Both the position numbers and the translations under genes were made by a program. Below are positions 9,325-64,000 of a stretch of 64,000 nt of DNA, piece by piece. The notes under the pieces were generated by a model. It ran no database searches and was not told the DNA's origin. It saw nothing but the letters and a program-made list of their open reading frames with translations. Each line of letters begins with the position of its first letter. The stretch's first letter is position 1. Source of the stretch: Betaproteobacteria bacterium (lineage in GTDB: Bacteria > Pseudomonadota > Gammaproteobacteria > Burkholderiales > UBA3065); contig JAIXXL010000021.1 of assembly GCA_027490755.1 (NCBI GenBank), forward strand, positions 25,675-89,674, read 5' to 3'.

Positions 9325-9347
9325 TCTGCGTAACCTGCTTCGGCGCC

Positions 9348-9424
<77 letters not shown>

Positions 9425-9436
9425 AGGGCCGCGATA

Positions 9437-32605: not shown

Positions 32606-32610
32606 GACAC

Positions 32611-32641: not shown

Positions 32642-32644
32642 CAT

Positions 32645-32990: not shown

Positions 32991-33037
32991 TCGCCGAGAA
33001 GTCAGGCACGTAAAGTAGTTTTACGGCGATACCTTGA

Positions 33038-33932: not shown

Positions 33933-33961
33933 TGATTTCAATCAGCAAATGAAAGTTCATT
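33933..33961. promoter_or_regulatory. Two adjacent inverted repeats, candidate TetR operator
   Basis: 'TGATT-tc-AATCA' (33933-33944) and 'AATGAA-ag-TTCATT' (33948-33961). They lie in the roughly 530-bp tetR/permease divergent spacer. Confidence 0.3.
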
Positions 33962-34189
33962 GACGGATTAAGTAATACATGTTGTGATTGGTCTATGGTG
34001 AAGTAGTAGTAGGCCCCAACCAGCACGACTTGGCATCATCAGGCAGCACCGATTGGCTCGACACATGATCGAGCACCGTAGGGAGCAACACAGAAGATGC
34101 TGCGCAGCTGCATGTACTGACCTGCGCTTTCCTGAAGGCCTCACAAATCGATGCCTGCGCCTTTTTGGTGGTGGGCTCAGGAGGTACAC

Positions 34190-49940: not shown

Positions 49941-51185
49941 TCAGGCGCCAAGACGCTGCCAGTGGCGGGCGATGCGGTGGGCGCCTTCGACACACTGCTC
50001 GAAGGGTGCCACCAGCGCGATACGGGCGTAGTTTGCGCCGGGGTTGATGCCGTGCGCCTCCCGTGCCAGGTAGCTGCCGGGCAGCAGCAGCACGTTCTCT
50101 TCCGCCAGCAGCGTCTTCACAAAGGTCTCGTCATCAACCGGCGTCGGTAGCCACAGATAGAAGCCGGCGTCCGGCCGCTCCACGCCAGTCACCGGGCCGA
50201 GGATGGGCAGCAGGGCGTCGAACTTGGCCTTGTACAGCGCGCGGTTCTCGCGCACGTGAGCCTCGTCGTGCCAGGCCGCCACGCTGGCAGCCGCCACCGC
50301 CTCGCTCATGGCGCAGCCGTGGTAGGTCCGGTAGAGCAGGAACTTCTTGATCAGCTCGTCTTCGCCGATGACATAGCCGGACCGCAGGCCCGGCGCGTTG
50401 GAGCGCTTGGACAGCGAGCCGAACACCAGCAGCTTGCGGTAGTCGCTGCGGCCCAGCTCCTGAGCTGCCTGCAGCGCACCCAGCGGCGGGTGCGCCTCGT
50501 CGAAGTAGATCTCCGAGTAGCACTCGTCGGAGGCGATGACGAAGCCGTAGCGGTCGGCGAGTGCGAACAGTGTCCGCCAGAAGTCGAGGCCTAGCACGGC
50601 GCCGGTGGGGTTGCCGGGTGAGCAGATGTAGAAGAGCTGGGTGCGCGCCCAGATGGCATCCGGCACGCTGCCGAGGTCTGGCACGTAGCCTGAGGCCGAG
50701 ACCGTGTTCAGGTAATAGGGCTCGGCGCCAGCCAGCAGGGCCGCACCTTCGTAGATCTGATAGAACGGGTTGGGCGAGATGACCACCGGCCGCACGCCGC
50801 CCTCGGGCGCTGGCCGCACCACCGCCTGCGCGATGGCGAACAGCGCCTCGCGGCTGCCGTTGACCGGGATCACCTGGCTGCCGATGTCCAACGCCGGCAG
50901 GCCATACCGGCGCTGCGCCCAGTCGGCGATAGCTTGGCGCAGGCTGGCCGGGCCTTGCGTGGTCGGGTAATTGGAAAGACTGCCCAGCCCCGCAGTCAAC
51001 GCCTCGCCTATGAGTGCCGGCGTGGCGTGGCGCGGCTCGCCGATGGACAGGTTGACGCGCGGCAGGTCGCTGCGTTCGGGGATGCCGGCCACCAGCGCCG
51101 AGAGCTTCTGGAACGGGTAGGTCTGAAGGGTGTCTAGGCGAGGGTTCAAAAACGTGTCCAGGTTGGGGCCGTGCCCGGGCTTCAC
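49941..51185 (-). CDS. dapC: Succinyldiaminopimelate aminotransferase (class I PLP aminotransferase)
   Basis: 'NPRLDTLQTYPFQKL', 'SPGNPTG', 'SLSKRSNAPGLRSG' (PLP Lys). A TTG at 51149 giving 'MNPRLD...' is a likely alternative start. Confidence 0.85.
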   Translation of the reverse strand: MKPGHGPNLDTFLNPRLDTLQTYPFQKLSALVAGIPERSDLPRVNLSIGEPRHATPALIGEALTAGLGSLSNYPTTQGPASLRQAIADWAQRRYGLPALDIGSQVIPVNGSREALFAIAQAVVRPAPEGGVRPVVISPNPFYQIYEGAALLAGAEPYYLNTVSASGYVPDLGSVPDAIWARTQLFYICSPGNPTGAVLGLDFWRTLFALADRYGFVIASDECYSEIYFDEAHPPLGALQAAQELGRSDYRKLLVFGSLSKRSNAPGLRSGYVIGEDELIKKFLLYRTYHGCAMSEAVAAASVAAWHDEAHVRENRALYKAKFDALLPILGPVTGVERPDAGFYLWLPTPVDDETFVKTLLAEENVLLLPGSYLAREAHGINPGANYARIALVAPFEQCVEGAHRIARHWQRLGA

Positions 51186-51246
51186 TCGTGATAGGGTCGG
51201 CGCGGTCCGGCCACCGGGGTGGGCCGGAGATTATAGGGGGGCGGGA

Positions 51247-52161
51247 GTGGTCGGCAAAGGCACTGGGGCGGGAGACGTCTCTTCCGGGCGTGAGGGGGCG
51301 GTTGTCGTGATCGGGGTGATGACCGGTGCCGCGGTCTGGGGCTTGGTCTGGTATCCCTACCGCGCGCTTGAGGCCGCCGGGTTCTCTTCTACCGCATCGA
51401 CGGCGCTGACCTACGCCATCAGTCTGGCCGTTGGCGTCGCGTTGTTCGGCACCCGGCTCGGCGAGCTGCGACGGCACTGGCGCGCGGTGCTGCTGATCGC
51501 GGTCATCGCCGGCTGGACCAATCTTTCCTATGTGCTCGGCATGGTCGGCGGCGAGGTCATGCGCGTGCTGCTGTTGTTCTACCTGGCGCCGCTGTGGACC
51601 GTGATTCTTGCGCGCATCGTGCTCGGCGAGCGGCTGACGCTGCAGTCCGGTGTACTGGTCGCGCTGTCGCTGGCGGGCGCCCTGATCATGCTCTGGCCGG
51701 AGCAGGGCCTGCCCCTGCCGGCCAATGCGGCCGAATGGTTCGGCGTGACCGGCGGCATGAGCTTCGCCAGCATGAACGTGCTGTCGAAGGGCGCAGACCA
51801 GGTGAGCATCGAGACCAAGTCGGTGGCGACCTGGGCAGGCGTCCTCATCGTGTCCGCCATCTGGCTGGCGGTGGGCGGGGGGGCGTGGGCGGTGCCGGCG
51901 GCCGGCTGGGCGGAGTGGCTGATCCTCGTCCTGCTTGGTGTGGCGATGTTTGCCAGCACGGTGATCATTCAACACGGCATCCAGCGGGTCCCGGCCAATA
52001 CCGCGATCGTTCTGTTCCTGATCGAGCTGGTGGCGGGTGCGGTGTCCGCGGCGTTGTTGTCGGACGAGATGCTGCGGCCACAGGACTGGCTGGGTGGGTC
52101 GCTGATCATCGGCGCGAGTCTGGTGGCTGCGGCGAGAAAGGTAGGGGGCAGACGAGATTGA
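51247..52161 (+). CDS. EamA/DMT-family transporter
   Basis: About 10 TM helices with two EamA-like halves. GTG 51247 was chosen so that TM1 ('AVVVIGVMTGAAVWGLVW') is retained. Start uncertain (track ORF begins at 51130). Confidence 0.7.
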   Translation: MVGKGTGAGDVSSGREGAVVVIGVMTGAAVWGLVWYPYRALEAAGFSSTASTALTYAISLAVGVALFGTRLGELRRHWRAVLLIAVIAGWTNLSYVLGMVGGEVMRVLLLFYLAPLWTVILARIVLGERLTLQSGVLVALSLAGALIMLWPEQGLPLPANAAEWFGVTGGMSFASMNVLSKGADQVSIETKSVATWAGVLIVSAIWLAVGGGAWAVPAAGWAEWLILVLLGVAMFASTVIIQHGIQRVPANTAIVLFLIELVAGAVSAALLSDEMLRPQDWLGGSLIIGASLVAAARKVGGRRD

Positions 52162-52241
52162 GTGGACATGAAGCGCAGGTGTCGCTCAGCCGGTATCTGA
52201 CCGGGCCCAGCCTTTTTGGCGCGTGCTCCGGGGCACTGGTC

Positions 52242-54836
52242 ATGATGCGTCTTTCGCCTCAGTTGATTGCCTGGCTGGGTGGTGTAGCCAAGCGCGTTGA
52301 TCTGGCGATTTGGCGAAAGACCCTAGAGCTCGTGCTCGGGCGAGCGCCTGAACCGGCGCGTCACGGGCCCGGCACTGCGCAGACTCTCCGCTGGATCGAC
52401 CACCTGCTCGCGCTCAATGATGCCCTGCGTCTTTACTACTGCATCGCACAGGAGCCAGCGCGCGTCCACGAGTTGTCCTCGACTCGCTTGGTCACTTTTG
52501 TGCCTTGTGATGATTCACAGTTGGGCTTGCGCGCCACTGCCGTATCGGTCGCCATGCTTCTCGACATGCTTGGGCCGCGCCTGGGCAATACCCGCTTCGG
52601 ATCGTTCCAACCACTGGATCACGGCTTGTCTGAACGTTTGCGTGAACGGGTCCGCGCCTGGCGCGAATGGGCCGAGGCCAACGCGCTGAACGTCAACGCC
52701 CGCTGGATCGCGCGCGAGGCTGTTGCGCGGGGCATCCCGTATCACCGTGAACCTGGATCCAAGCTGCTCGTTCGGCTCGGGCATGGTGCGAGCCAGCGGC
52801 GACTCAACGGCCCGTACGTGGACCGGGTGAGCAGCGTTGCCACGCATTGGTCAAATGACAAATGGCAGACCAGCAACCTCTTCGCCGCGCACGGCCTGCC
52901 GACGGCCGGGACCCGGTTGGTCGCCAGTTTCGAGCAGGCTCTGGCCCAGGCTAAGCGGTTCGGCTGGCCGGTCGTCGTCAAGCCGCGTTCTACTGACAAG
53001 GGCGTCGGCATCACCATCAACATCACCGACGAACCCGGCCTGCGGCAAGCTTTTGAGCATGCCACCAGATTTCGCGGGGGTGTCCTCGTGGAGCGCCATG
53101 TATCCGGATATGACCATCGCCTGCTGGTGGTCGGTGGCCGCTTTGTCGCCGCTGCTCTCCGACTGCCCGCACGCGTCGAGGGCGATGGCCAAAGGACCAT
53201 CGCGGAACTTGTCCATGCCCTGAATCTGGCCCGGTTTACGGGTCGGTTGCCAGGCGCCTACCGCTCTGAGGTGCCTGTGGTCCTGGACCATGAAGCGCTG
53301 CGGGTCCTCATAGCCCAGGGGTATGCGCCGGGTGACGTTCCAGCGGCAGGCGCCACGGTCACCCTTCGTGGGAACGCGAATCTTTCGACAGGCGGGAGTG
53401 CCGAGGACGTTACCGAGCAGGTTCACGTCGACAACCGCGCGCTGGCGGAGCAAGCGGCACGCCTCATAGGGCTGTGCACGGCAGGGCTCGACCTGCAGAC
53501 GAGCGATATCAGCCGGTCTTGGCGCGAGGTCGGCGGCGCTATCCTCGAGATCAACGCCGGCCCGGGTCTGCCGGTGCACCACTCGAGAACGTCCCGCTAC
53601 ACGGTACGAAAGGCCATCGTCGACGATCTGTTCCCGGCAGGGGCGACCGGTCGGATCCCCACCGCAGGTGTGACTGGCAGCATCGGCAAGACCACAACCT
53701 GCCGCATGCTTTCGAGCATCCTGAAGCATGCCGGGCACACGGTAGCGCTCACGGGCACCCAAGGCGCCTTCCTCGACGAGCGGCAGTTGCGAAAGGGCGA
53801 TCTGGCGGGGGGGCGGGCGGCACTGTCTCTGCTGCAAGACCCTGCGGCCACCGCCTGCGTCGCTGAGCTGGCGCGTGGGGGCCTCATCCGTAGCGGCTTG
53901 GGGTTGGACGTCCTCGATGTCGGTTCGGTGCTGAATGTGTACGACAACCATGTCGGGCTCGACGGCATCGAGACCCGCGAGCAGATGGCCCGCGTCAAGC
54001 AGTTGGTCGTCAGGCATGCCCGGCAGCTGGCGGTCCTGAACGCGGATGACCCGCTATGTCTGGCGATGAGCGATGGTATGGACCCGACCAGGGTGTGTCT
54101 GGTCAGCGAGGCGATGAGTCCGCGACTGACGGCGCACCTTGAGGCGGGTGGCATGGTCGCGACGATGCGCGACGCGGAACGAGGCCCGCTGCTCAGTTTG
54201 CAACGGGGCGCCGACATTCTGGGGGAGATGCCCGTCGCAGACATCCCGGCGACGTGGGGTGCCAGATTCCGCCCGGCGATGCTCAACGCACTGTTCGCTG
54301 CGGCTCTGGCTCACGGGCTCCGCGTACCGTTTCGGCATATCGAGACCGGCCTGGCGGCCTTTACGTCCGATTACGCCAGCAACCCGGGGCGGACGAACCG
54401 CATCTCGGGTCTGCCGTTCGATCTGTGGGTCGCGTGGTGCGATGGCCCCGAGGCGTGCACCGAGATGTCGCGCTTGATGTCCCGAATCGGGGGCGATGTG
54501 ATAGGGCATCTGGTGATCTATGCGGTTGGCAATCGCCCTGACGCCTTCACCCGCGCCTCAGCAGACGCTGTCGCCGGCGCTTTCGATCGCTACTACTGCA
54601 CCGACATGGAAGAAGACCGTCGCGGACGGGCGTTCGGCGAGGTCGCTGGGCTGCTGGCCGACAGCCTTCGGAAGGCAGGGGTCGCCGACTCCGCGATCGT
54701 CGTCGAGCCCTCCAGCAGTGCCGCCGTAAAAAGGGCCTTGGCCGAGATGCCAGCGGGGGGCATGTTGGTCATCCAGACCTACCATCCCGACACAGTCATG
54801 GCCTCGGTGCGTGCCATGTGGCCCGACGCCGCCTAG
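52242..54836 (+). CDS. Cyanophycin synthetase-like protein (N-terminal region + ATP-grasp + Mur-ligase-like domain)
   Basis: ATG-ATG at 52242 (in-frame GTG alternative at 52179). ATP-grasp blocks 'GWPVVVKPRSTDKGVGI', 'VLVERHVSGYDHRLLVVGGRFVAAALR' and 'AILEINAGPGLPVH'. Mur-ligase P-loop 'GVTGSIGKTTTCRML' and 'VAELARGGLIRSGLGLD...NVYDNHVG', as in CphA. The upstream part of the 1080-aa track ORF overlaps the EamA gene in another frame. Confidence 0.8.
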   Translation: MMRLSPQLIAWLGGVAKRVDLAIWRKTLELVLGRAPEPARHGPGTAQTLRWIDHLLALNDALRLYYCIAQEPARVHELSSTRLVTFVPCDDSQLGLRATAVSVAMLLDMLGPRLGNTRFGSFQPLDHGLSERLRERVRAWREWAEANALNVNARWIAREAVARGIPYHREPGSKLLVRLGHGASQRRLNGPYVDRVSSVATHWSNDKWQTSNLFAAHGLPTAGTRLVASFEQALAQAKRFGWPVVVKPRSTDKGVGITINITDEPGLRQAFEHATRFRGGVLVERHVSGYDHRLLVVGGRFVAAALRLPARVEGDGQRTIAELVHALNLARFTGRLPGAYRSEVPVVLDHEALRVLIAQGYAPGDVPAAGATVTLRGNANLSTGGSAEDVTEQVHVDNRALAEQAARLIGLCTAGLDLQTSDISRSWREVGGAILEINAGPGLPVHHSRTSRYTVRKAIVDDLFPAGATGRIPTAGVTGSIGKTTTCRMLSSILKHAGHTVALTGTQGAFLDERQLRKGDLAGGRAALSLLQDPAATACVAELARGGLIRSGLGLDVLDVGSVLNVYDNHVGLDGIETREQMARVKQLVVRHARQLAVLNADDPLCLAMSDGMDPTRVCLVSEAMSPRLTAHLEAGGMVATMRDAERGPLLSLQRGADILGEMPVADIPATWGARFRPAMLNALFAAALAHGLRVPFRHIETGLAAFTSDYASNPGRTNRISGLPFDLWVAWCDGPEACTEMSRLMSRIGGDVIGHLVIYAVGNRPDAFTRASADAVAGAFDRYYCTDMEEDRRGRAFGEVAGLLADSLRKAGVADSAIVVEPSSSAAVKRALAEMPAGGMLVIQTYHPDTVMASVRAMWPDAA

Positions 54837-54846
54837 CGCCTTCCCG

Positions 54847-56646
54847 TCAGCGTGCGTTCGCCGTGTCGGCGGCGTTGGCCTCGAGCATCGGCTCCAGCAG
54901 TTCCTTGAGGCGGCGGATGACGTTGGTATCCAGGTCAGCTTTGTTGCGCTGCCGCCCCGAGTGATCCTCCACCGTCGTGAAGCGGTCGACAGGGCTGCCG
55001 GTGCGCAGTAGTTCTTCGTTACTCACCACCAAGACGATGCGGTCGACGTCCGGGTCCAGCAGAAGGGCGGTGCAGCGTGCGTAAAGCCCTCGCGCTGTCA
55101 GGACCAACTCGGTTCGGTCGGGCCCGACCGTCCGGTCGTGGTCGGTGATGTAACAGCGCTCGTTGCTCGCGGCCGCCTCCGCGCGGATTTTCTCGGCGCG
55201 CTTCCAGGCCGACCCACCGCCAAGGATTGCATGGACAGGGATGCGGCCAGCGTGCGGAAGTACCGTCTCGAACATCTTGCGCAACAACGCTCGCGTACGC
55301 GGACCGCCGGACACGAAAGGTGCCGAGTTCACCTCGATGATGACGGCAGAGTTCTCGTGCCAAGGTATGGATGCGTCATCCGTCATAAGGTCCACACCGG
55401 CGATGTCCAGCCCCATCTGCCGCGCGGCCCGCACGCAGATCGCCGCGTTATCCGGGTGCAGATGGTCCGTTACGTTCCCAGATTCACCACCCCACTCTGT
55501 GGATTCTCGCGGGCGCAGGTAGACCCATCGTCCCTCAGTCGGCACAGACTCTACGGTGAGTCCCTGGCGGGAGAGTTCGGCCTCGGCGACCTTGTCGATC
55601 TGCGGCACATTCGATCGCTCCCACAATGGCTTGAGGCTCGCCTGGTGGTTTGCCAGCGTGATGAGCTCTTGTACCGTCGATGTCCCATCGCCCTGAATAC
55701 GTCTCGGAAAGCGCGTCACAGCAAACAGCACGCTGCCGAATCCCACCAGTACACGGTGGCAGATTCCGGGCGCCTGAGCTTCGACGAGGACCCGGCGCGA
55801 CAGTCTGTTTGCAGCCTCGAAGGCGGCGGCGAGGGTCGTCTCGTCGCCGATGCCGGTGGTCACGCCCTCTCCCCGGTCACGGTCGTTGGGTTTCACAACC
55901 ACGGGCCATCCGATCGCACGCGCGGCCTCAGCAGCTTGCTGCTCATCCAGAACCAGATGGTTCAAAGGCACAGGGATCCCAACCTGGCGCAAGATCTGCG
56001 TGGTCAGGGATTTTCTTTGAGCTGCACTTGCACCCAGATGAGAATCGGTGGAGACGTTGCTGCGGTGCAAGCGCATGGCTCTCGCTCCCCAGCCCAGGCA
56101 GTAGCGCGATGCTCCGAGGTGCAGGAAGGGAATGTCAGCGTCGTACGCGGCCCACAAAAGGCCGATCGAAGACTTGCCGCCTTCGCTCATGGTGCTTCGG
56201 ACCGGTTCGATGAACCCATCATGGATGCTCTTCTGCAGGCTCTCGTGGTCTCGTTCCGCAGCCGCGGGTTCAAGCCCCGCTTGCAGGATCCGTATGGCCA
56301 ACTTGTAGGCACTGTTGCGCTGCGCGGGCGGAAGAGGGTCGACGACCGGGACGCGGGCCACCACTTCGAACATGTCGTTCTCACCGGGCACGATCCGAAC
56401 GACAAGCCCGGCCTCGAAGACCGGTGCCCGGGCGGCCCGAAGGAGATGCGCGGCGAGCGCCAGCAGCCGATCGACGAGCAGCGCCGGGGTCGGGCTGGCG
56501 CCGGCCGACTCACCGGGCGGGAGACCAGTCCAACGCTCGAGCACTTGATCGAGTCTGGCTATCTCGCATGTGGTCTGGAGCGTGGCCTTGTCGACCCGGA
56601 GCGTGATGGTTCGCGTCCTTTGGCGGAGGCCGGGTAGGTAGCTCAT
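54847..56646 (-). CDS. CphA2-like ATP-grasp protein (CphA-type N/ATP-grasp regions, vestigial Mur-ligase region without P-loop)
   Basis: 599 aa. 'GKSSIGLLWAAYDADIPFLHLG...CLGWGARAMRL', 'GWPVVVKPNDRDRGEGV', 'VLVEAQAPGICHRVLV' and 'AVIIEVNSAPFV' are paralogous to 52242-54836. At the position of the P-loop it reads 'ILGGGSAWKRA'. Confidence 0.75.
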   Translation of the reverse strand: MSYLPGLRQRTRTITLRVDKATLQTTCEIARLDQVLERWTGLPPGESAGASPTPALLVDRLLALAAHLLRAARAPVFEAGLVVRIVPGENDMFEVVARVPVVDPLPPAQRNSAYKLAIRILQAGLEPAAAERDHESLQKSIHDGFIEPVRSTMSEGGKSSIGLLWAAYDADIPFLHLGASRYCLGWGARAMRLHRSNVSTDSHLGASAAQRKSLTTQILRQVGIPVPLNHLVLDEQQAAEAARAIGWPVVVKPNDRDRGEGVTTGIGDETTLAAAFEAANRLSRRVLVEAQAPGICHRVLVGFGSVLFAVTRFPRRIQGDGTSTVQELITLANHQASLKPLWERSNVPQIDKVAEAELSRQGLTVESVPTEGRWVYLRPRESTEWGGESGNVTDHLHPDNAAICVRAARQMGLDIAGVDLMTDDASIPWHENSAVIIEVNSAPFVSGGPRTRALLRKMFETVLPHAGRIPVHAILGGGSAWKRAEKIRAEAAASNERCYITDHDRTVGPDRTELVLTARGLYARCTALLLDPDVDRIVLVVSNEELLRTGSPVDRFTTVEDHSGRQRNKADLDTNVIRRLKELLEPMLEANAADTANAR

Positions 56647-56782
56647 CGAGATCTTCGCGCGGGTTCGATATAGATACGCCGCAGGATACTTGCTCGCGAC
56701 GCGGCTTTCGAGTTAGCCTGCGGATGCGATGGGGGTCTCGCCCCGCAAAGTAGTTTTTCGCCAACTCTTGAGGGAACCACAG

Positions 56783-56881
56783 ATGCAAAATCAAGCTCCG
56801 CTCGCCCCGTATGGCGCGCTTCGTTTCACTCCGATCTCTACCAAAGTCGGTGGTGGCAAGGGTCTCGACAAGCCCGCCTGA
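56783..56881 (+). CDS. Unannotated 32-codon ORF (candidate precursor/primer peptide)
   Basis: 'gaggga'-N7-ATG. Translation 'MQNQAPLAPYGALRFTPISTKVGGGKGLDKPA'. It ends 20 nt before the HExxH ORF and is too short for the ORF track. Only positional evidence supports it. Confidence 0.3.
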   Translation: MQNQAPLAPYGALRFTPISTKVGGGKGLDKPA

Positions 56882-56901
56882 TCCCCGAGTGGTCCTCCAG
56901 T

Positions 56902-58014
56902 TTGCCATTGCTCGAACCTTGCTTTGCTGAAGGTGCTTCGCTTGACGCGGACATAAACGCCGCGCTTCGTGAAGGGGTGGCATGGTGTGCGCAACAAGCC
57001 GGGCTTGACCCGGCTTGTTGTTTTGATGGCGGGCCGATGCCGTCTGCGTGGTGCGGCAGCCCGGTCGATTTCGCTGCCTATTACGATTGGGCCATAGCCT
57101 TGACGTCGGCCGTCGACGATCCGCCGGCTCCCTGGGAGCCGGCTTCTTCTTCCGGTTCTGATGCAGCGGCGCGGCGTTGGCGTCCCTTTCTGCAACATTT
57201 CTCCGCCGCGTTCGCCTCGTCGGCCCGACCCGCGACCGATCACGCGACCCGTAACGTGTTGGCCGCGCCCGCCGTCGTCACCTTGGGCGAGCCTTGGTTC
57301 GACGCCGCAGCGAGCGAGCGCATCGTCCGCTGGTTGGACCTTGAGCCTGACAACGCCATGGCGCTGGTCGGCCTCAGCGCCGCTGAACTCCACGAGGCTC
57401 GCAGCGATGTCGAGCGCGCATTGGCTGCGTTGGCGGCCTGGGCACCCGGTTTCCACGGCGAGTTCGTCGCGGTGGTGCGGCGGTTGATCGTCGTCAAGCC
57501 GTCTGGCTCGCAGCGGATGACCTTCCGTGCCGCATCTTCGTTTGCGCTGTGGGGCGCTCTGGCCGGCAACCAGCAGGTGCACCCGCGCTGGTGGGACTGG
57601 GTGCCCACCTTGGTCCATGAGACGGCGCACTCGATCCTGTTCGCCCTGTCGCGACACGCCCCACTGGTCGAGAACGACCCAGCGGAGCGTTACGCCTCGC
57701 CCTTGCGCGATGATCCTCGGCCGATCGACGGCATCTACCACGCAGCATTTGTCTCGGCGCGCGAGGCGGTGGCTTTGGGCGAGTGTCTGCAGGCGATCGA
57801 TGCTGGCGTGGCACTTCCCGGAGTGGGTGATGATGAAGTCAGCGCTGTGCGCGCCGACTTTGCCGCGGTGCGGGAGAACTCGGTGCGGTCTTTTCATGAC
57901 TGCGTCGCCGTGCTCGAGCGGCATGCGCGGTTGAGCCCGTCTGGTCGCGACATACTTGATACGCTGCGACGGGAGCTTGAGGCGTTGGTCGGTGCGGCGG
58001 TCCACGCTGCTTAG
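56902..58014 (+). CDS. HExxH-motif domain protein (peptide beta-hydroxylase-like family)
   Basis: 370 aa, TTG start. The central 'PTLVHETAHSILF' HExxH motif sits in a helix-rich protein with no signal peptide, so it resembles the HEXXH-motif domain family rather than a classical zincin protease. Confidence 0.65.
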   Translation: MPLLEPCFAEGASLDADINAALREGVAWCAQQAGLDPACCFDGGPMPSAWCGSPVDFAAYYDWAIALTSAVDDPPAPWEPASSSGSDAAARRWRPFLQHFSAAFASSARPATDHATRNVLAAPAVVTLGEPWFDAAASERIVRWLDLEPDNAMALVGLSAAELHEARSDVERALAALAAWAPGFHGEFVAVVRRLIVVKPSGSQRMTFRAASSFALWGALAGNQQVHPRWWDWVPTLVHETAHSILFALSRHAPLVENDPAERYASPLRDDPRPIDGIYHAAFVSAREAVALGECLQAIDAGVALPGVGDDEVSAVRADFAAVRENSVRSFHDCVAVLERHARLSPSGRDILDTLRRELEALVGAAVHAA

Positions 58015-58087
58015 CTTCGCCAGCCAGCCCCGAGGCTGATCAAGCCCGTGCGGGTTGACTTGCCGCGGCAGCCCTAGCCCGCCAACC

Positions 58088-58999
58088 ATGAACATCCTGC
58101 TCACCGGGGCATCGGGGTATTTCGGCAGCGCGCTTTTGGCCGAACTCTTGCCGGCCCACCGCGCGAACCTGCACCGGGTGACCGTGCTAGTTCGCGGGGA
58201 CCAGGCAGCGCAGTCGGGTCGGTCAGACGTCCCCACGCTGCGCGAGATGGACTTGCACGCGTCGACGCTCCGCTCGCGAGGCATCGATACCGTCATCCAT
58301 CTTGCTGCAGCGCGCTCGTCCACAGATATCCCAGCGCAGAACCGCTCCCTGGAGTTGAGCCGCAGACTGCTCGAAGCCTCAGCGGGTGCAGATGTGAGGC
58401 GCCTCGTCCTCGCGTCCAGTCACGCCGTGTACGGGACACAGCCAACGCCGTGGGACGAGGATGTGACTGTTCCCGCGCCCGTGACCTTGTACGGCTTGGC
58501 AAAACGCGCAACCGAGTTGATGCTCGATGCCAGTCCGGTGTCGACGGTCTCGGCCCGTCTGGCCAAGCTGGTCGGGCCGTCGCCGAGGTTCCGCGTTCAG
58601 CCAAGCGAACTCCCCCACGTCCTCTTGTCGTACGCCCTCAAGGGAAAGCTGGTTGTGATGCGCAACCCTAAACAGCGTTTCGATTTCCTCGACGTGCGCG
58701 ATGCAGTGCAGGGGGTCATCGCGATCGCCAACCACTCTGGGGAGGGGTTGCCAGGTGCGATCAACTTGGGTTCAGGTGGCGTGGTGATGAGTGCGGAGGT
58801 TGCCGCAATGGTCGATGACGTGTTCCGACCAATGGGTTTTCCCCTGCGTTATCAATTCGAGACCGAGAGTACGCCAGCACCGAGGGACTTCGGGATGTCC
58901 ATCAAACTTGCCCACCGTTGCTTGGGGTGGAGCCCGGAAATCGCCCTGCGGATGACGCTTGAAGGTATTGCAGGGCAATGGGCAATACGTGCCCTCTAA
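58088..58999 (+). CDS. NAD-dependent epimerase/dehydratase (extended SDR)
   Basis: ATG 58088: 'MNILLTGASGYFGSAL' (Rossmann GxxGxxG) and catalytic 'YGLAK' (YxxxK). Confidence 0.8.
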   Translation: MNILLTGASGYFGSALLAELLPAHRANLHRVTVLVRGDQAAQSGRSDVPTLREMDLHASTLRSRGIDTVIHLAAARSSTDIPAQNRSLELSRRLLEASAGADVRRLVLASSHAVYGTQPTPWDEDVTVPAPVTLYGLAKRATELMLDASPVSTVSARLAKLVGPSPRFRVQPSELPHVLLSYALKGKLVVMRNPKQRFDFLDVRDAVQGVIAIANHSGEGLPGAINLGSGGVVMSAEVAAMVDDVFRPMGFPLRYQFETESTPAPRDFGMSIKLAHRCLGWSPEIALRMTLEGIAGQWAIRAL

Positions 59000-59038
59000 A
59001 CCCCTGGACCGTGACGCTGGCCCGTCCTGACGACCCTA

Positions 59039-62000
59039 TCAATGAACCCAAGTGCGCAACAGTTCGTGCAGCCCGGTCAGCCTGCTCCGGGTAAGCAGCG
59101 AGGCTTTGTCGGAGTACGCATGCACCTGCTCATCGACGAACTCGACCCGATCGATCTGTCCCAGGGGCATCCCTCTGGCGAGGAACTCGTCGGTCTGCAC
59201 CACGACCACCAGCGCCCCGACATCCTTTCTTAGAACCAAGGCTCGGGTTCGCTCATATAAGACCCTTCCCGACGCCATTGCATGCGTTCGGCCTGACGGT
59301 GCAATTGTACGTTCTGCGCTGCTCAAGAACGCCGCGAGCCCTTTTCTGCAGAGTTCTTGCCATCGTGTCTCCGCCGCGCTCCACGCCGCGTCCCCACCCA
59401 CAAAAGCCTCCACAGGTATCCGGCCTTTGTTCACCAGCAGTCGGTCGAGATACTCGGGCAGGTAGCGGCGCGAGATCTCTCCGCCACCCAGCAAGGGCGC
59501 GTAGTTCACCTCATTGATGACCGCACCGTTCTCGTACCATGGCCGGGTGATGTCGGGGCTGATGATGTCCACGCCAGCGACCTCCAGGCTCATGAGCGCG
59601 GTGGCATCGAGCGCGATCCTCAGGTTGTCCGGATGAAGGTCGTGCGTAACTTCCTCGTCGACGCCGCCCCATGCCGAGGTCTCGATGCGTCGCAGACGCA
59701 CAAAGCGCCCCTTGCCGGGGACCGACTCGGCTAGCCAGCCGTCGCGCTTTAGGGTCTGCACGGCAAGTTCGTCCAGGGCGATCGGGTTGCACTGCCACGG
59801 CGGGATGAGCGACTGTCGCGCCCGTTCTCGCTCGACCAGCTCCCGTACTGTCGATTCGCCGTCCCCGTAGACGCCGATTGGGAGTCTGCGCACGGCATAC
59901 AGCAGCCGACCCGCGGTGATGAACAGCCGATGGCAAACCCCCTCGACCTGCTGCTCGACCAGTACCTGCTTGCCTCGTGATAGCTTGAGCGCTGCCGCGA
60001 ACGCAGCGTCGAGTGTCTCTGCATTGACATCGACGCTGACGCCTTCGCCACGCTCGCGGTCGGCCGGTTTCACGACCACCGGGTAACCCAGCCGGTCGGC
60101 GATCTGCTGCGCTTGTTCGCGTGCGCGCGCAACCCCGTGCCGCGGCGCTGGCAGACCTGCTTCGCGCAACAACTGCGCGGTCACGCGCTTGTTCTCTGTC
60201 AGCGCCATGCCGAAGACCGAATCCCGGTCGGTCGTGCTCCGGTCGATCCTCCGTGCCCGTTCACCCCAGCCCAATTGGTAGATGCCGCCGCTGATCGGTC
60301 GGAACGGTACGCCAGTCTCCCGCGCGACACGGAGCACCTCGAACGTGGATTTCCCGGCAGATACAGCTTGGGCGTGGCGCTTTACCAAGCTTTCATAGAT
60401 CTTTGCAAAGAACCCTTCGCGGAGCGAGGCATCTGCAGGGTCGGCGTTGTTCGCCCATTTGGCGACGGCGGATGCCTGCTTGAGAACATCCTGCAACACG
60501 CTATTTGGCGCCGCCTCGGTACCATTCAGACGGATAGTGGCTTGCCAACGCCCAGCGCGTGCGGTGTCAGGCTGACAGGTGAGGACCATCGGCTCATCAA
60601 ACATCGGCACTCGGACCGCATGCAGCAGGGCCAAGGCAAACCGCAAGACGCCGTGCAGCCAGAATCGGGCCCGCTCCTCTGTCCCCGAGGGAACCGTCTG
60701 GGGTTCCTCTGCGCGACCCGCATGGCCCGCGAGCAGTGTCAGCCAAGCCTGGAGTCTTAAGGCGTCTGGCTGGGCAGGGGGCTCGAAAGCCACATTCAGC
60801 GTTCCATTGGTGGCGACATGCGGCGCAGATGCCATTGGGGTCTTGCCACTCGTGGCCCCGGTCAAGTACTTGTGGAGCAGGGCCTGCACCGCATCGTGCT
60901 GGATCTTCCCTTGCTCGTTGCGGGGTATGCGATCAACCACCACTGCAGCGTGCAGCGCATGTGCCCCCAATCGTTCTTTCACATGCTCGACCAGGTGCGG
61001 CGGAGCGGCATCCATGGCGCGCCTGAGTTCGACAAGTGCCACAGGGACGTCCTGTAGAACAGAGTGCCGTATTGGCATGACGTGCGCGTCAGCGACAGCG
61101 GGGTGTGTCCGTAGGCACTCCTCCACCTCGGCGGGGTAGAGGTTGACGCCGCTGATGATCATCATGCCGTCGGCTCGACCGCGGTGGACGAGTTGCCCGC
61201 CAGGGGTCAACAAGCCTATATCGCCCGTCGCAAACCAGCCCTTCTTGAAAACGCGGCGGTTGTGTTCTCCCTCACCCACATAGCCGCAGATCGCAGCCGG
61301 GGAGTGGATCTCGATGAGGCCTTCTTGTCCATCAGGTAAGCGCTTGCCGTGCGCATCGACGACCCGCAAGCGGAAACCCGGGAGGGGGCTGCCCACGCCA
61401 CCGGGAAGCGTAAAAACATCCTCTGGCCTGGTTATCGTCGATGTGTGTGTCTCGTTGGTGCCGTAGAACAGGAACAGGTTGGGTGTCAGGCGGTCACGGA
61501 TCCTCTGGCGCAGGCCCATCGATACTGTTGAGCCTCCGATCATCAGGGCGTGCAGTCCAGCCAAGGGGCCCTTTCGCTCATTTTCAGGCTTCCTCAGCAT
61601 CAGCTCGGCGTGGAAGGCCGTGCCGTAGACAGCAGAGACTTGGCCAGACGTGACGAGAGACTCGAAATCGAACGCACCTGGTTTGCCAAGAAACACGCTG
61701 GCGCCTATGGCAAAGGCCTCGAGGCAACGTTGTTTGGCGGCATAGAAATGCATGCTCACCAAGCTGAGCAATGAGTCTTCGGGCCCGTATGGGAGCCACT
61801 TTGGCCCCAGGTTTGCGCGGGTGAGCTGTTGTCGATGGGTCACCGGTATGACCTTCGGCACGCCTGTGGACCCAGACCCGGTCACGTAGAGCCACGGTTG
61901 GTCGGCCACGTCTTCAGCGGCCGGTGGGACAGAGTCAGGGTCACCCGAGAGGGTCCCGAAGTCGATCGTGGGTAGGCCGTATGCCTTTGATTGAGGGGTG

Positions 62001-62356
62001 GCGTCGCCAGTCAGGATCGTGGCGGCGCTCGTGAGTGACAGCTGGCGTCGTGCATGTTCTTCGGGAGTCGAACTTGCGAGGCTCAGCGAGGTTGCACCAA
62101 TGTGCGCGAGTGCGAGCATTGCGACCAGATGGTCCAAAGGATCGTCCAGCGCTATGGCTACGGTACTACCCGTAACAATCCCGTATGCAAGCAGTCCGGA
62201 AGCGGTGGCGGCGACCCGCTGTTGCAATTCCACATAGGTGAGACGTTGGTCCGAGGTGGCGACAGCCGCCACGCCGGGATGCTGAATTGCCTCCCGGGAG
62301 AGGAGGCTTACGATGTTCTGTGACACTAGGGGGCTCTGCGGTGGTCGGCTAGGCAA
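59039..62356 (-). CDS. Fusion protein: ANL-superfamily adenylate-forming domain + CphA-like N/ATP-grasp module
   Basis: N-terminal approx. 500 aa: 'YVTGSGSTGVPKVIPVTH', 'FYGTNE', 'GWFATGDIG', 'GRADGMMIISGVNLYPAEVEE' and 'PRNEQGKIQ' (AMP-binding core motifs). C-terminal approx. 580 aa: 'GKSTFEVLRVARETGVPF...QLGWGERARRI', 'GYPVVVKPADRERGEGV', 'VLVEQQVEGVCHRLFI', 'AVINEVNYAPLL', then a P-loop-less region 'FVGGDAAWSAA'. An alternative GTG start at 62326 overlaps the GT stop (tagtg). Confidence 0.8.
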   Translation of the reverse strand: MPSRPPQSPLVSQNIVSLLSREAIQHPGVAAVATSDQRLTYVELQQRVAATASGLLAYGIVTGSTVAIALDDPLDHLVAMLALAHIGATSLSLASSTPEEHARRQLSLTSAATILTGDATPQSKAYGLPTIDFGTLSGDPDSVPPAAEDVADQPWLYVTGSGSTGVPKVIPVTHRQQLTRANLGPKWLPYGPEDSLLSLVSMHFYAAKQRCLEAFAIGASVFLGKPGAFDFESLVTSGQVSAVYGTAFHAELMLRKPENERKGPLAGLHALMIGGSTVSMGLRQRIRDRLTPNLFLFYGTNETHTSTITRPEDVFTLPGGVGSPLPGFRLRVVDAHGKRLPDGQEGLIEIHSPAAICGYVGEGEHNRRVFKKGWFATGDIGLLTPGGQLVHRGRADGMMIISGVNLYPAEVEECLRTHPAVADAHVMPIRHSVLQDVPVALVELRRAMDAAPPHLVEHVKERLGAHALHAAVVVDRIPRNEQGKIQHDAVQALLHKYLTGATSGKTPMASAPHVATNGTLNVAFEPPAQPDALRLQAWLTLLAGHAGRAEEPQTVPSGTEERARFWLHGVLRFALALLHAVRVPMFDEPMVLTCQPDTARAGRWQATIRLNGTEAAPNSVLQDVLKQASAVAKWANNADPADASLREGFFAKIYESLVKRHAQAVSAGKSTFEVLRVARETGVPFRPISGGIYQLGWGERARRIDRSTTDRDSVFGMALTENKRVTAQLLREAGLPAPRHGVARAREQAQQIADRLGYPVVVKPADRERGEGVSVDVNAETLDAAFAAALKLSRGKQVLVEQQVEGVCHRLFITAGRLLYAVRRLPIGVYGDGESTVRELVERERARQSLIPPWQCNPIALDELAVQTLKRDGWLAESVPGKGRFVRLRRIETSAWGGVDEEVTHDLHPDNLRIALDATALMSLEVAGVDIISPDITRPWYENGAVINEVNYAPLLGGGEISRRYLPEYLDRLLVNKGRIPVEAFVGGDAAWSAAETRWQELCRKGLAAFLSSAERTIAPSGRTHAMASGRVLYERTRALVLRKDVGALVVVVQTDEFLARGMPLGQIDRVEFVDEQVHAYSDKASLLTRSRLTGLHELLRTWVH

Positions 62357-63582
62357 TGCTGTACCCGCTCCATCAGCCGGTCGCCATTGCTTTGTAGATC
62401 ATGAAGTTTTCGCCCGGCCCCTCGAGCGCGGTCAACGTGGCGCCCATACACGGCCTCATCGTCAAACAACTCCTCCAGTCGTTGCGAAACATGCTCGACG
62501 ATTTCTTGGGGCACTAACCTTAAGTAGGGGGCTTCCTGGTACTCGGGCGGGAAGGCTATTGTCTCGCCGCCCTCCCCAAGTATCTCCGGGATACCGCCGG
62601 AGGTGCTGCCGATAACCGGGATACCATTCAGCAAAGCCTCAACGACCACGCGGGGACCGCTGTCCCACCAAAGGCTGGGGGCCAGAAGCACGCGAGCGCG
62701 GCCGTAAACCGGGCGCATATCCCGGGTGTTTGGGGTTAGGAGGACGTTTCGGACCTCATCCGGATCGATGCCCGTCTGGCTGGCGACGCTTTCAAGTAAG
62801 GCCAGCCATGTCGCGCGCGTGTCGACCACCTCAAACGGTATGTCTGGTCGACGCTGCGCCATGTGCAGGATCAGTTGAGCGACGAACACGCCTCCTTTGG
62901 CAGGTATCGGGTTGATAAACAGAACCCGCTCCCGCCTGTGAGCGTTCGCTGTGACCGGTGCCGGGTCTACGAAGGTCCCGAGCGGAATCATGTGGTAGCC
63001 CTCGCGCTGGCGATACATCTCAGCCGTTGCGCGGGTGTCGGTGAAAATGAAGTCGACATCTCTACACCATGTTGTTCCCCGGTTGTTGCCGTGCATTAGG
63101 AAGACACCTACGGCGATGTTCCTGCGGTGTGCCTCGTTCGCCGTCAACAGTGTGATGAGGGAGTTGTCGAAGAACAAGACGAGATCTGGCGAGTCTGCAT
63201 CGAGCAGGCGGCAGTACTCATCGAACCAGCGTTGCTCCTCGAAAGAGAGCATCAGCCGGCGCTGGCTGCGCTCGGTGACAAGGAGGCGGTGTCGTAGCAA
63301 GCCGTCGGGCACCTCGACGAATCTCCCTTTCTGTGCAAGCAGCCTTGGCCACAACTCTGCGCGACTCGCCATGCCCTGGGGGTTGACGAAAACCGTCGCG
63401 CCAATTGCCGCAACGTCGCATCCACGCAGTGCCAATTGGTTGAGGCACTCCCGGACCATCAGGCCGGCTCCGTTTGCGGTGTCGAGGAGCGTATTGGGGG
63501 AGGCCCAGAGGATTCTGATTGGCGGACTCATCTTGGATCCAACAACCGCAGCGGCGAGACTGTATCTAGCAGATTCAATCAC
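62326..63582 (-). CDS. Glycosyltransferase family 1/4 (GT-B)
   Basis: C-terminal 'LLAPSLWWDSGPRVVVEALLNGIPVIGSTSGGIPEILGEGGETIAF' is the GT1 EX7E-type region. The probable ATG start at 63531 gives 'MSPPIRILWASPN'; the track ORF starts at GTG 63582. Confidence 0.8.
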   Translation of the reverse strand: MIESARYSLAAAVVGSKMSPPIRILWASPNTLLDTANGAGLMVRECLNQLALRGCDVAAIGATVFVNPQGMASRAELWPRLLAQKGRFVEVPDGLLRHRLLVTERSQRRLMLSFEEQRWFDEYCRLLDADSPDLVLFFDNSLITLLTANEAHRRNIAVGVFLMHGNNRGTTWCRDVDFIFTDTRATAEMYRQREGYHMIPLGTFVDPAPVTANAHRRERVLFINPIPAKGGVFVAQLILHMAQRRPDIPFEVVDTRATWLALLESVASQTGIDPDEVRNVLLTPNTRDMRPVYGRARVLLAPSLWWDSGPRVVVEALLNGIPVIGSTSGGIPEILGEGGETIAFPPEYQEAPYLRLVPQEIVEHVSQRLEELFDDEAVYGRHVDRARGAGRKLHDLQSNGDRLMERVQHCLADHRRAP

Positions 63583-63754
63583 GGCCCCGGTCCGATGTGG
63601 CAGTGGGAGGACTTGCCCGCGCTACTGTGCCTCTGGATGGGGCTCCTCGCAAGGCGTCGGGCAGATACTCACGATATGCCTGGTGAGGAACGGGCAAAGC
63701 AAGACTGACGAACGAGACGCGGTATCCTGAGCCCCGAAACGGCGCAAACACCTT

Positions 63755-64000
63755 ATGCACCCTCCCATCAATTCACCCGATCGTCCCGCCTTTATCATCT
63801 GGACGATGCAGCGAACTGGTGGTACCAACTTCGCCCGTTGGCTGGATGGCTTCACCGGTAAACCCTTAGCCTTGCATGAACCGTTTATGGAGACACGAAT
63901 CCTCGGTCATGCCTCACGGGGTTGGAGACTAAACCAAAATGTAAGCATGCTTGAGGATGCTTTGTGCGCCGCACTGCACCAGCGACCTAGTTTAAAACAT
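63755..64000 (+). CDS. Hypothetical protein, 5' part only (possible sulfotransferase-like P-loop); continues beyond window
   Basis: ATG 63755, and the frame is open for 82 codons to the window edge. 'RPAFIIWTMQRTGGTNFARWL' is reminiscent of a PAPS-binding 5'-PSB loop. It is missing from the ORF track because no stop is reached. G+C is lower here. Confidence 0.35.
   Translation, partial: MHPPINSPDRPAFIIWTMQRTGGTNFARWLDGFTGKPLALHEPFMETRILGHASRGWRLNQNVSMLEDALCAALHQRPSLKH

What the first reader, a model, noticed from the sequence alone, without database searches (positions are those of the whole stretch)
52179..64000. Atypical cyanophycin-synthetase-like cluster: three CphA-type ATP-grasp paralogues plus peptide-tailoring genes, no cyanophycinase
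Gene order from the EamA transporter gene to the window edge:
- a full-length CphA-like protein (N region + ATP-grasp + Mur-ligase-like domain with P-loop GSIGKTTT);
- a convergent 599-aa CphA-like protein lacking that P-loop;
- a 32-codon ORF;
- a HExxH-motif protein;
- an SDR epimerase/dehydratase;
- a 1105-aa fusion of an ANL adenylating domain to a third CphA-like module;
- a GT-B glycosyltransferase;
- a partial ORF.
The three ATP-grasp modules are clearly paralogous. They share the blocks G[WY]PVVVKP..[DE].G.G[VI], VLVE....G..HR and EVN.AP/EINAGP. Known cyanophycin loci pair cphA with a cyanophycinase (cphB/cphE) and often an isoaspartyl dipeptidase. Neither is visible here. Hydroxylase, SDR, GT and adenylating partners are not part of the described pathway. 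The inference is a modified, branched or capped poly-amino-acid or peptide-polymer product made non-ribosomally by ATP-grasp chemistry. Third codon positions look less G/C-biased than in the flanking dap and ribosomal genes, which suggests horizontal acquisition.
Basis: partly seen in the sequence, partly recalled or inferred. Interest (0 to 1): 0.9.

Follow-up and report, generated by a model that had tools for sequence, protein, structure and literature searches.

The report
Peptide-tailoring cluster built around cyanophycin-synthetase-like ligases
A freshwater bacterium of the Rhodocyclaceae carries a horizontally acquired block of genes: three relatives of cyanophycin synthetase (the enzyme that makes a nitrogen-storage polymer), one of them fused to an amino-acid-activating domain, lying beside a small gene for a 32-residue peptide and an iron/α-ketoglutarate peptide hydroxylase. 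Peptide–hydroxylase–ligase pairs in this arrangement recur in other bacteria, so the block most likely makes a modified peptide, not the ordinary storage polymer.

Summary
In window 52242–63582 there are three cyanophycin-synthetase-like (CphA-like) ATP-grasp ligases: a three-domain CphA1-like protein, a CphA2-sized protein, and an adenylation (ANL) domain fused to a CphA2-like module. A fourth paralogue lies about 5 kb past the window edge. Next to them are an α-ketoglutarate HExxH peptide β-hydroxylase (TIGR04267, above the curated cut-off), an NAD-dependent epimerase and a GT-B glycosyltransferase. No cyanophycinase, IadA or IaaA was found anywhere in this 79%-complete MAG. In a relative of the same genus, the fusion gene sits directly beside EamA, so about 6.8 kb here was inserted; these genes also have lower GC3. 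First, a conserved 32-codon ORF sits just upstream of the hydroxylase. Second, the same head-to-head pairing of hydroxylase and CphA-like ligase recurs in other genera, where short ORFs with a [ST]K[IV]G motif sit upstream of the hydroxylase. The CphA2-like ligases fall in their own clade, where an Arg replaces the G-domain His that CphA1 needs for activity. Best reading, with moderate confidence: a RiPP-like (ribosomally made, then enzyme-modified) pathway in which CphA-like ATP-grasp ligases and the hydroxylase modify a small precursor peptide. Not a standard cyanophycin locus.

The parts
51130..52161 (+). EamA transporter; ancestral neighbour of the fusion gene, and the left edge of the insertion
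   Evidence: Pfam EamA; EamA next to the fusion in the same-genus relative G005 (L094) and in Rhodocyclaceae ZLKRG27 (L037)
52242..54836 (+). CphA1-like three-domain ATP-grasp/Mur-ligase ligase (divergent; P-loop GSIGKTT; G-loop KPRSTDKGVG)
   Evidence: NCBIfam TIGR02068 576 bits, below cut-off; Pfam Mur_ligase_M, RimK; motif scan; tree: long branch next to the genus CphA1/CphA2
54847..56646 (-). CphA2-sized CphA-like ligase (N + G domains, no P-loop), head-to-head with the HExxH gene
   Evidence: NCBIfam cyanophycin synthetase 251 bits; PDB hits to CphA1/CphA2 G domains; sister of the 4th paralogue inside the fusion-type clade; G-loop KPNDRDRGEG
56770..56775 (+). Shine-Dalgarno-like GAGGGA before pep32
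   Evidence: sequence
56783..56881 (+). pep32: 32-codon ORF, candidate precursor peptide (MQNQAPLAPYGALRFTPISTKVGGGKGLDKPA)
   Evidence: shares a LAPYG.{5}P.{3}[ST]KVG segment, at the same place upstream of an HExxH gene, with a small ORF in Verticiella L069; weak [ST]K[IV]G motif shared with HExxH-upstream ORFs in G084 and G250 (alignment A2)
56902..58014 (+). αKG-HExxH peptide β-hydroxylase (TIGR04267); start codon uncertain (TTG)
   Evidence: NCBIfam TIGR04267 89.2 bits, cut-off 40; HETAH motif; not found in 40 close relatives; rare in the phylum, 13/401 genomes
58055..58999 (+). NAD-dependent epimerase/dehydratase (SDR), probably a sugar-nucleotide epimerase feeding the GT
   Evidence: Pfam Epimerase 112 bits; NCBIfam hits below cut-off
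59039..62356 (-). ANL adenylation domain fused to a CphA2-like ATP-grasp module (A3 SGSTG.PK and A10 Lys motifs present; G-loop KPADRERGEG)
   Evidence: Pfam AMP-binding, AMP-binding_C, CPSase_L_D2, RimK; widespread family: about 40 full fusions and about 25 split pairs in 80 genome loci; ancestral in the genus (L094)
62326..63582 (-). GT-B (GT4-type) glycosyltransferase; its 3' end overlaps the fusion start (likely translationally coupled)
   Evidence: Pfam Glycos_transf_1; 53-55% identical GTs in the same overlapping position upstream of the fusion in L005, L012, L070
63755..64000 (+). Start of an AT-rich insert (ORF277, then a sulfotransferase and two unknown ORFs past the window); membership in the cluster uncertain
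   Evidence: GC about 0.48-0.53, GC3 0.48-0.56; Pfam Sulfotransfer_2 in L002 855-1481

Best explanation
This is most likely a RiPP-like peptide-modification gene cluster. It was acquired by the Rhodocyclaceae MAG and inserted next to a pre-existing ANL-CphA fusion gene. In the proposed mechanism, pep32 is made by the ribosome. The αKG-HExxH enzyme β-hydroxylates one or more of its residues (this enzyme family β-hydroxylates His, Asp, Phe, Gln or Pro in RiPP precursors). One or more CphA-like ATP-grasp ligases then form amide bonds on the peptide, most plausibly at its C-terminal carboxylate, as the CphA G domain does on the cyanophycin chain end: it phosphorylates the terminal carboxylate and adds an amino acid. 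The ANL-CphA fusion could instead activate a carboxylate by adenylation. The GT with its epimerase, and perhaps the nearby sulfotransferase, would decorate the product. Shown: the genes, domains, motifs and insertion; the head-to-head HExxH/CphA-like pairing in several genera; the conserved small ORF upstream of HExxH; the separate ligase clade with a changed G-domain loop. Inferred: that pep32 is translated and is the substrate, and every chemical step.
For: (1) HExxH is TIGR04267, the 'aKG-HExxH-type peptide β-hydroxylase'. Characterised members act on RiPP precursors: PflC/PosC (PMC12636437), PesO in nitrilobacillin biosynthesis (PMC13060819), ChlBH and BpmH. (2) pep32 sits 20 nt upstream of HExxH on the same strand, with an SD-like site. 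A small ORF in the same place upstream of HExxH in Verticiella (L069) shares the LAPYG.{5}P.{3}[ST]KVG segment. Small ORFs upstream of HExxH in G084 (two loci), G250 and G638 share KLLGF and [ST]K[IV]G/KAP motifs. (3) The CphA-like ligase lies head-to-head with HExxH in the window, L063 (Ca. Nitrotoga), L069 (Verticiella) and L108 (G084). It is also adjacent in L112 (G456) and L013 (Comamonadaceae). ANL proteins sit next to HExxH in L113 and L116. (4) These ligases and the fusion modules form one clade, apart from canonical CphA1/CphA2. The clade shares a G-loop DR[DE]RGEG where CphA1 has DGNHGRG with the catalytic His267, which suggests a different substrate. (5) No cyanophycin-degradation genes were found. 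(6) It is a coherent inserted block with its own codon bias, between EamA and the fusion, which are adjacent in the same-genus relative. A single Logan contig from the source sample spans 50500-64000 with no mismatches, so the assembly is real.
Against: The peptide alignment across loci is weak: mean column identity 33%. Only one other locus (L069) shares pep32's specific motif, and short ORFs in high-GC DNA arise easily by chance. No RNA or proteomic evidence shows pep32 is made (one search found no RNA holder). No protease or exporter typical of RiPPs is obvious (EamA lies outside the insertion). CphA_full keeps a full CphA1 architecture with a Mur-ligase domain, which fits polymer chemistry as well as peptide tailoring. 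The MAG is 79% complete, so missing context cannot be excluded. No enzyme activity was tested.
Confidence: 0.4

Rival explanations
1. A cyanophycin-like polymer pathway. CphA_full makes a poly-Asp backbone with side chains; the CphA2-like paralogues and the fusion polymerise dipeptide units; HExxH, GT and SDR modify the polymer.
For: CphA_full has all three CphA1 domains and a P-loop. Three or four CphA-like ligases are present. No cyanophycinase or IadA/IaaA means the product would not be recycled as storage.
Against: CphA_full scores far below the CphA1 equivalog cut-off and has K in place of CphA1's catalytic G-domain His. The CphA2-like ligases are not CphA2 orthologues. The HExxH family is a known peptide hydroxylase, not a polymer tailor. 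Same-genus relatives carry their own canonical CphA1/CphA2 pair.
Confidence: 0.2
2. A cell-surface glycoconjugate pathway, for example amino acids or peptide attached to a polysaccharide or lipopolysaccharide. The ligases amidate sugar acids, the GT/SDR build the glycan, and the sulfotransferase sulfates it.
For: GT plus epimerase plus sulfotransferase nearby. The GT–fusion operon recurs in L005, L012, L070. HExxH loci in G250 and G084 sit beside GT2, Wzy O-antigen ligase and CapD-like genes.
Against: No membrane-bound polymerase, flippase or lipid carrier enzyme sits in the window cluster. The small ORF next to HExxH fits a peptide substrate better.
Confidence: 0.2
3. No single pathway. The genes are a mosaic of independent acquisitions near a pre-existing fusion gene, each with its own unrelated role.
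For: Gene orientations are mixed. The fusion is ancestral in the genus while the rest is inserted. An AT-rich insert follows with a separate composition. The fusion's neighbourhood is not conserved across 78 loci.
Against: The HExxH–CphA-like head-to-head pairing and the upstream peptide recur in distant genera. The GT–fusion coupling recurs.
Confidence: 0.15
4. pep32 is a regulatory leader peptide (uORF or attenuator) controlling HExxH translation, not a substrate.
For: Its stop is 20 nt from the HExxH start codon. Its conserved segment is internal, not at a C-terminus.
Against: Other HExxH-upstream ORFs share only weak motifs, and their lengths vary from 32 to 80 aa.
Confidence: 0.1

Closest known systems
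Cyanophycin synthetase 1 (CphA1; e.g. Synechocystis sp. UTEX2470 SuCphA1, PDB 7LG5/7LGJ)
   Same: CphA_full has the N, G (ATP-grasp) and M (Mur-ligase) domains and the P-loop. All the window ligases align to the CphA1 G domain.
   Different: CphA_full scores 576 bits, below the 850-bit equivalog cut-off. The catalytic His267 loop DGNHGRG is DKGVG here, the P-loop reads GSIGKTT instead of GTNGKTT, and the N-domain Cx19HxxEH primer motif is absent. No cyanophycinase is partnered.
Cyanophycin synthetase 2 (CphA2; Stanieria StCphA2, PDB 8FXH; Gloeothece GcCphA2)
   Same: CphA_short and the 4th paralogue have CphA2's size (about 600 aa) and N + G + short C-terminal layout (CphA2 paper).
   Different: They fall in a separate clade with the ANL-CphA fusion modules, not with the genus's own CphA2-like protein. 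Their G-loop is DR[DE]RGEG.
αKG-HExxH peptide β-hydroxylases in RiPP pathways (ChlBH, BpmH, PflC/PosC, PesO)
   Same: Same TIGR04267 family; encoded beside a small candidate precursor ORF.
   Different: Not fused to a radical SAM enzyme. The partners here are CphA-like ATP-grasp ligases and an ANL-CphA fusion, not MNIOs, GNATs or an asparagine-synthetase-like enzyme. The peptide motif is unrelated to the ARMD or R(V/T)DN motifs of characterised systems.
Nitrilobacillin (pes) RiPP cluster of Peribacillus simplex
   Same: Pairs an αKG-HExxH β-hydroxylase with an ATP-dependent enzyme that acts at the precursor C-terminus by adenylation (PMC13060819). That is a working analogy for the HExxH + ANL/ATP-grasp pairing here.
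   Different: Its ATP-dependent enzyme is asparagine-synthetase-like, not CphA-like or ANL. Its precursor motifs and organisms differ.
ATP-grasp peptide ligases of RiPPs (graspetide MdnB/C; pheganomycin PGM1)
   Same: ATP-grasp enzymes forming amide or ester bonds on ribosomal peptides: the proposed way this cluster works.
   Different: Unrelated ATP-grasp families (not CphA-like). No ATP-grasp of the CphA lineage is known to act on a RiPP precursor.

Membership tests
CphA1 cyanophycin synthetase (for CphA_full) | N + G (ATP-grasp) + M (Mur-ligase) domains | tested here: met
   NCBIfam PRK14016/TIGR02068 match residues 133-858; Pfam Mur_ligase_M, RimK
CphA1 cyanophycin synthetase (for CphA_full) | Scores above the curated equivalog cut-off of TIGR02068 | tested here: not met
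   576 bits against 850. The genus CphA1 P0121 scores about 960-970.
CphA1 cyanophycin synthetase (for CphA_full) | G-domain catalytic His (SuCphA1 H267, DGNHGRG loop) | tested here: not met
   Loop reads KPRSTDKGVG, Lys at the His position
CphA1 cyanophycin synthetase (for CphA_full) | M-domain P-loop GTNGKTT | tested here: inconclusive
   GSIGKTT: the K and T that bind phosphate are kept, the N is changed
CphA1 cyanophycin synthetase (for CphA_full) | Cyanophycin synthesis from Asp + Arg + ATP | not testable with these tools
   Needs an in vitro assay
CphA2 (for CphA_short, 4th paralogue) | N + G + truncated M layout, about 600-650 aa | tested here: met
   599 and 601 aa; cyanophycin synthetase models match only the N-G region
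CphA2 (for CphA_short, 4th paralogue) | Groups with characterised or canonical CphA2 | tested here: not met
   Placed with the ANL-CphA fusion modules and HExxH-paired ligases (100/99 node). The genus CphA2-like P0122 groups with CphA1.
αKG-HExxH peptide β-hydroxylase (TIGR04267) | HMM above curated cut-off; HExxH motif | tested here: met
   89.2 bits against a 40-bit cut-off; HETAH motif
αKG-HExxH peptide β-hydroxylase (TIGR04267) | Encoded next to a precursor peptide | tested here: met
   pep32 20 nt upstream, same strand; a similar ORF in the same place in L069
αKG-HExxH peptide β-hydroxylase (TIGR04267) | Fe/αKG-dependent β-hydroxylation activity | not testable with these tools
   Needs an enzyme assay
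RiPP biosynthetic gene cluster | Ribosomal precursor peptide gene beside its modifying enzymes | tested here: inconclusive
   Candidate ORF with an SD site, conserved in one other genus; weak motif shared across 6 loci; no RNA or protein evidence
RiPP biosynthetic gene cluster | Leader-processing protease / exporter | tested here: not met
   None found in the window cluster
Cyanophycin metabolism locus | cphA1 with cyanophycinase (cphB/cphE) and isoaspartyl dipeptidase | tested here: not met
   No PF03575, TIGR01975 or PF01112 in the MAG. Caveat: 79% complete, and β-proteobacteria often lack cphB (PMC10206079).
ANL-CphA fusion family (JGI-named 'cyanophycin synthetase') | Full-length homology, A domain + CphA2-like module | tested here: met
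   50-57% identity to many homologues over 99% of the length

The most novel reading that the evidence does not exclude
The CphA-like ligases build a short cyanophycin-type chain (Asp backbone with Arg or other side chains, β-hydroxylated by the HExxH enzyme) on the C-terminus of ribosomal pep32. The precursor peptide would serve as the primer that primer-dependent CphA enzymes need. The result would be a hybrid peptide–polyamino-acid natural product made by CphA chemistry. No such class has been reported.
Probability: 0.1. Interest if true: 0.85.

Novelty: new variant of a known kind. Interest (0 to 1): 0.6.

Why it matters
If confirmed, this would be the first case of cyanophycin-synthetase-lineage ATP-grasp ligases working in a RiPP-like (peptide natural product) pathway. 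That would extend CphA chemistry, which adds amino acids to a chain end, from storage-polymer making to peptide tailoring, and would give a new enzyme pairing with αKG-HExxH hydroxylases. The widespread ANL-CphA fusion family, annotated as 'cyanophycin synthetase' but uncharacterised, and its clade-specific G-loop (DR[DE]RGEG instead of DGNHGRG) suggest a substrate different from cyanophycin. It is also a warning: automated annotation would call these genes cyanophycin synthetases. The cluster is small and coherent, so heterologous expression with LC-MS is a straightforward test.

Tried and rejected
The second (cphB/cphE plus iadA just past the window) also failed: none in L002 or anywhere in the MAG. 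I did not test CphE, which has no family model here. I considered and dropped the claim that 'no cyanophycinase' argues against cyanophycin: β-proteobacteria often lack cphB (PMC10206079), and so do same-genus relatives with canonical CphA1. Conserved-neighbour clustering around the fusion across 78 genome loci found no conserved neighbour family at or above 12 loci. The largest 'clusters' were spurious antisense ORFs, so the fusion's usual partners are unknown. For the unknown 320-aa HExxH partner (L106/L107), Pfam, NCBIfam and PADLOC found nothing. hhalign against the CphA2-like profile gave probability 0.9%. Its C-terminal 'EINTNP' resembles an ATP-grasp motif, but that is not shown. No RNA holder was listed for pep32/HExxH: not evidence either way. 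A search of the literature for a CphA-AMP-binding fusion found nothing, and none for CphA-like enzymes in RiPPs. Direct repeats in the region are coding similarity between paralogues, with no mobile-element boundaries and no tRNA at the edges. PADLOC: no defence-system hits for the island genes. Stachelhaus-code prediction for the A domain was not tried: the ANL domain scores higher to acyl-CoA ligases than to the NRPS A-domain model, so the code would be unreliable.


Full report
Identity of the window and its genome. The window is G000 contig C3:25675-89674 of a 2.06-Mb metagenome-assembled genome (49 contigs, 79% complete, 0.2% contaminated). It comes from a freshwater metagenome: a Logan contig from the probable source run spans 50500-64000 with no mismatches, so this part of the assembly is real. 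A same-genus genome's CphA1 is the NCBI protein MBU3694031 'MAG: cyanophycin synthetase [Rhodocyclaceae bacterium]', so the organism is a Rhodocyclaceae (β-proteobacterium). Upstream the context is MurJ, FNT, DinG, DapE, DapD and an aminotransferase (DapC). Past the window are an AT-rich insert (an ORF of unknown function, a Sulfotransfer_2 protein, two unknown ORFs), then ThiG, TrmB, a fourth CphA-like gene, a trypsin-like protease, GreA and SoxYZ.

Checking the observation. CphA_full (52242-54836, +) matches cyanophycin synthetase models over residues 133-858 at 576-581 bits, below the curated cut-offs of 850/877. It carries Mur_ligase_M and the P-loop GSIGKTT. CphA_short (54847-56646, −, 599 aa) and the fusion's C-terminal module match only the N-G region. 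The ANL-CphA fusion (59039-62356, −) has AMP-binding plus AMP-binding_C, with A3 (SGSTGVPK) and A10 (PRNEQGK) motifs, then a CphA2-like ATP-grasp. HExxH (56902-58014, +) is TIGR04267, the 'aKG-HExxH-type peptide β-hydroxylase', at 89 bits against a cut-off of 40. The SDR is an NAD-dependent epimerase and the GT a GT-B/GT4 glycosyltransferase. All three ligases score best against cyanophycin synthetase, not RimK, Ddl or carboxylase models. The 32-codon ORF is at 56783-56881 with a GAGGGA site at 56770-56775. Genome-wide there is no cyanophycinase (PF03575), IadA (TIGR01975) or IaaA (PF01112). There is no canonical CphA1 above the cut-off either. The four CphA-like hits on C3 are the only ones, and a fourth paralogue lies about 5 kb past the window edge. 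GC3 is 0.70-0.76 in the cluster against 0.79-0.93 in the flanking housekeeping genes. The insert past the window is much more AT-rich, with GC3 about 0.5.

An insertion into an ancestral fusion locus. The ANL-CphA fusion belongs to a widespread family. About 34 close homologues of 1040-1160 aa were found, several named 'cyanophycin synthetase' by JGI. The genome-collection scan found 80 loci across Proteobacteria, Chlorobiota, Campylobacterota and Actinomycetota (Microthrixaceae), with full fusions and split A + CphA gene pairs. In the same-genus relative G005 (L094) and in Rhodocyclaceae ZLKRG27 (L037), the fusion sits directly beside EamA and DapC, at 60% and 70-86% identity. In the window, CphA_full, CphA_short, pep32, HExxH and the SDR (about 6.8 kb) lie between EamA and the fusion. 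So that block was inserted, which agrees with its codon usage. None of the 40 close relatives has the HExxH gene. The same-genus relatives carry their own canonical CphA1 (about 960 bits) next to a 725-aa CphA-like protein, and also lack PF03575.

Phylogeny and active-site signature. An ML tree of CphA-like modules puts CphA_full on a long branch next to the genus's canonical CphA1/CphA2 pair (weak support). CphA_short and the 4th paralogue are sisters (99/98). They sit inside a well-supported clade (100/99) with the fusion modules and the standalone CphA-like ligases that pair with HExxH in Ca. Nitrotoga (L063), Verticiella (L069) and a Comamonadaceae (L013). Canonical CphA1 and CphA2 have the G-domain loop DGN(H/Q)G(R/K)G. 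There His267 of SuCphA1 is the residue whose mutation kills G-domain activity (PMC9262961). The aligned position was mapped from the HMMER alignment to 7LG5. Nearly every member of this clade has DR[DE]RGEG there, Arg replacing the His; CphA_full has K. None of the window ligases has the Cx19HxxEH N-domain primer-generating motif.

A recurring hydroxylase–ligase–peptide module. The TIGR04267 hydroxylase is rare: 13 of 401 sampled Pseudomonadota genomes, and 4 of 400 in the class by protein search. Head-to-head pairs of HExxH and a CphA-like ligase occur in the window, Ca. Nitrotoga (L063), Verticiella (L069) and G084 (L104/L108). Adjacent pairs occur in G456 (L112) and a Comamonadaceae (L013). 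ANL proteins sit next to HExxH in two more genomes (L113, L116). A small ATG ORF sits just upstream of HExxH on the same strand in the window, Verticiella, G084 (two loci), G250 and G638. Two of these (window, Verticiella) share LAPYG.{5}P.{3}[ST]KVG. A regex scan of all fetched loci found this only in those two places. The G084, G250 and G638 ORFs share K(L/M)LG(F/Y) and repeated [ST]K[IV]G-K.P motifs. The overall alignment is weak, 33% mean identity. Characterised αKG-HExxH enzymes β-hydroxylate residues of RiPP precursors and often pair with enzymes that modify the C-terminus (PflC, PMC12636437; PesO with an adenylating nitrile synthetase, PMC13060819). So a reasonable model is a RiPP-like system with pep32 as precursor. 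The CphA-like ATP-grasp ligases, whose family chemistry is phosphorylation of a chain-end carboxylate followed by amide formation, would act on that precursor. Separately, the GT–fusion unit is conserved. GTs 53-55% identical to the window GT lie upstream of the fusion, overlapping its start, in three other genomes (L005, L012, L070). This suggests glycosylation is part of the fusion's own pathway.

What is shown and what is inferred. Shown: the domain content and the insertion; codon bias; the ligase clade and its loop signature; HExxH–ligase pairing in several genera; a small ORF upstream of HExxH, with one specific motif conserved in one other genus. Inferred: that pep32 is translated and modified; the order and chemistry of the steps; the product. 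Rivals were weighed: a cyanophycin-like polymer pathway (0.2), a glycoconjugate pathway (0.2), an unlinked mosaic (0.15), and pep32 as a regulatory leader (0.1). The most novel reading still open is a peptide-primed, cyanophycin-like tail added to pep32 by CphA chemistry (probability 0.1).

Tools that failed. An AlphaFold2 model of the unknown 320-aa HExxH partner from G084/G250 was unusable (pLDDT 36). Profile comparison to CphA2-like ligases found nothing. That partner's family remains unknown, although it carries an EINTNP ATP-grasp-like motif.

Noticed in passing
window 9130-9424 (-), 32530-32605 (+): tRNA-His, tRNA-Arg and tRNA-Pro form a cluster; tRNA-Phe sits separately. Both lie near low-GC segments (6001-10000 and 32001-34000, GC 0.55-0.57), which are possible genomic islands.
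   Followed up: no
C3 about 89.4-92.5 kb (window-equivalent 63755 to about 66800; L001 2927-3760, L002 855-2847): AT-rich insert (GC about 0.5) right after the GT: an ORF with no Pfam hit, a Sulfotransfer_2 sulfotransferase, and two unknown ORFs. It may or may not belong to the cluster.
   Followed up: partly
L002 4941-6746 (-) (C3 about 94.5-96.3 kb): A fourth CphA2-like paralogue, sister to CphA_short, next to ThiG, TrmB and a trypsin-like protease.
   Followed up: partly
same-genus G005 contig C22 (L105 445-2622 and 2637-5204): The genus's canonical CphA1 (P0121) lacks the N-domain Cx19HxxEH primer motif. The adjacent 725-aa CphA-like protein (P0122) carries it (CSVGERGGFLQRLHRGTWPAHIMEH), as if the primer-generating N-domain activity sat on a separate protein.
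   Followed up: partly
The search for related loci L003-L082: The ANL-CphA fusion family (about 40 full fusions and about 25 split A + CphA pairs in 80 genome loci) is widespread and uncharacterised. Its CphA modules share a DR[DE]RGEG G-loop instead of CphA1's DGNHGRG.
   Followed up: yes
L003 vs L026: The fusion C-modules from a Microthrixaceae MAG and Thauera aminoaromatica are almost identical (tip branches about 0.09): either recent horizontal transfer or contamination of the MAG.
   Followed up: no
L106/L107 (G084, G250): HExxH loci in which the head-to-head partner is an unknown 320-aa protein family with no Pfam or NCBIfam hit, with a C-terminal EINTNP motif. Nearby are GT2, Wzy O-antigen ligase and CapD-like genes.
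   Followed up: partly
Read laying X8, window 50850-54150: A Logan contig from another lake metagenome joins 50850 directly to 54150. This suggests a related population that lacks about 3.3 kb of the EamA–CphA_full region.
   Followed up: no
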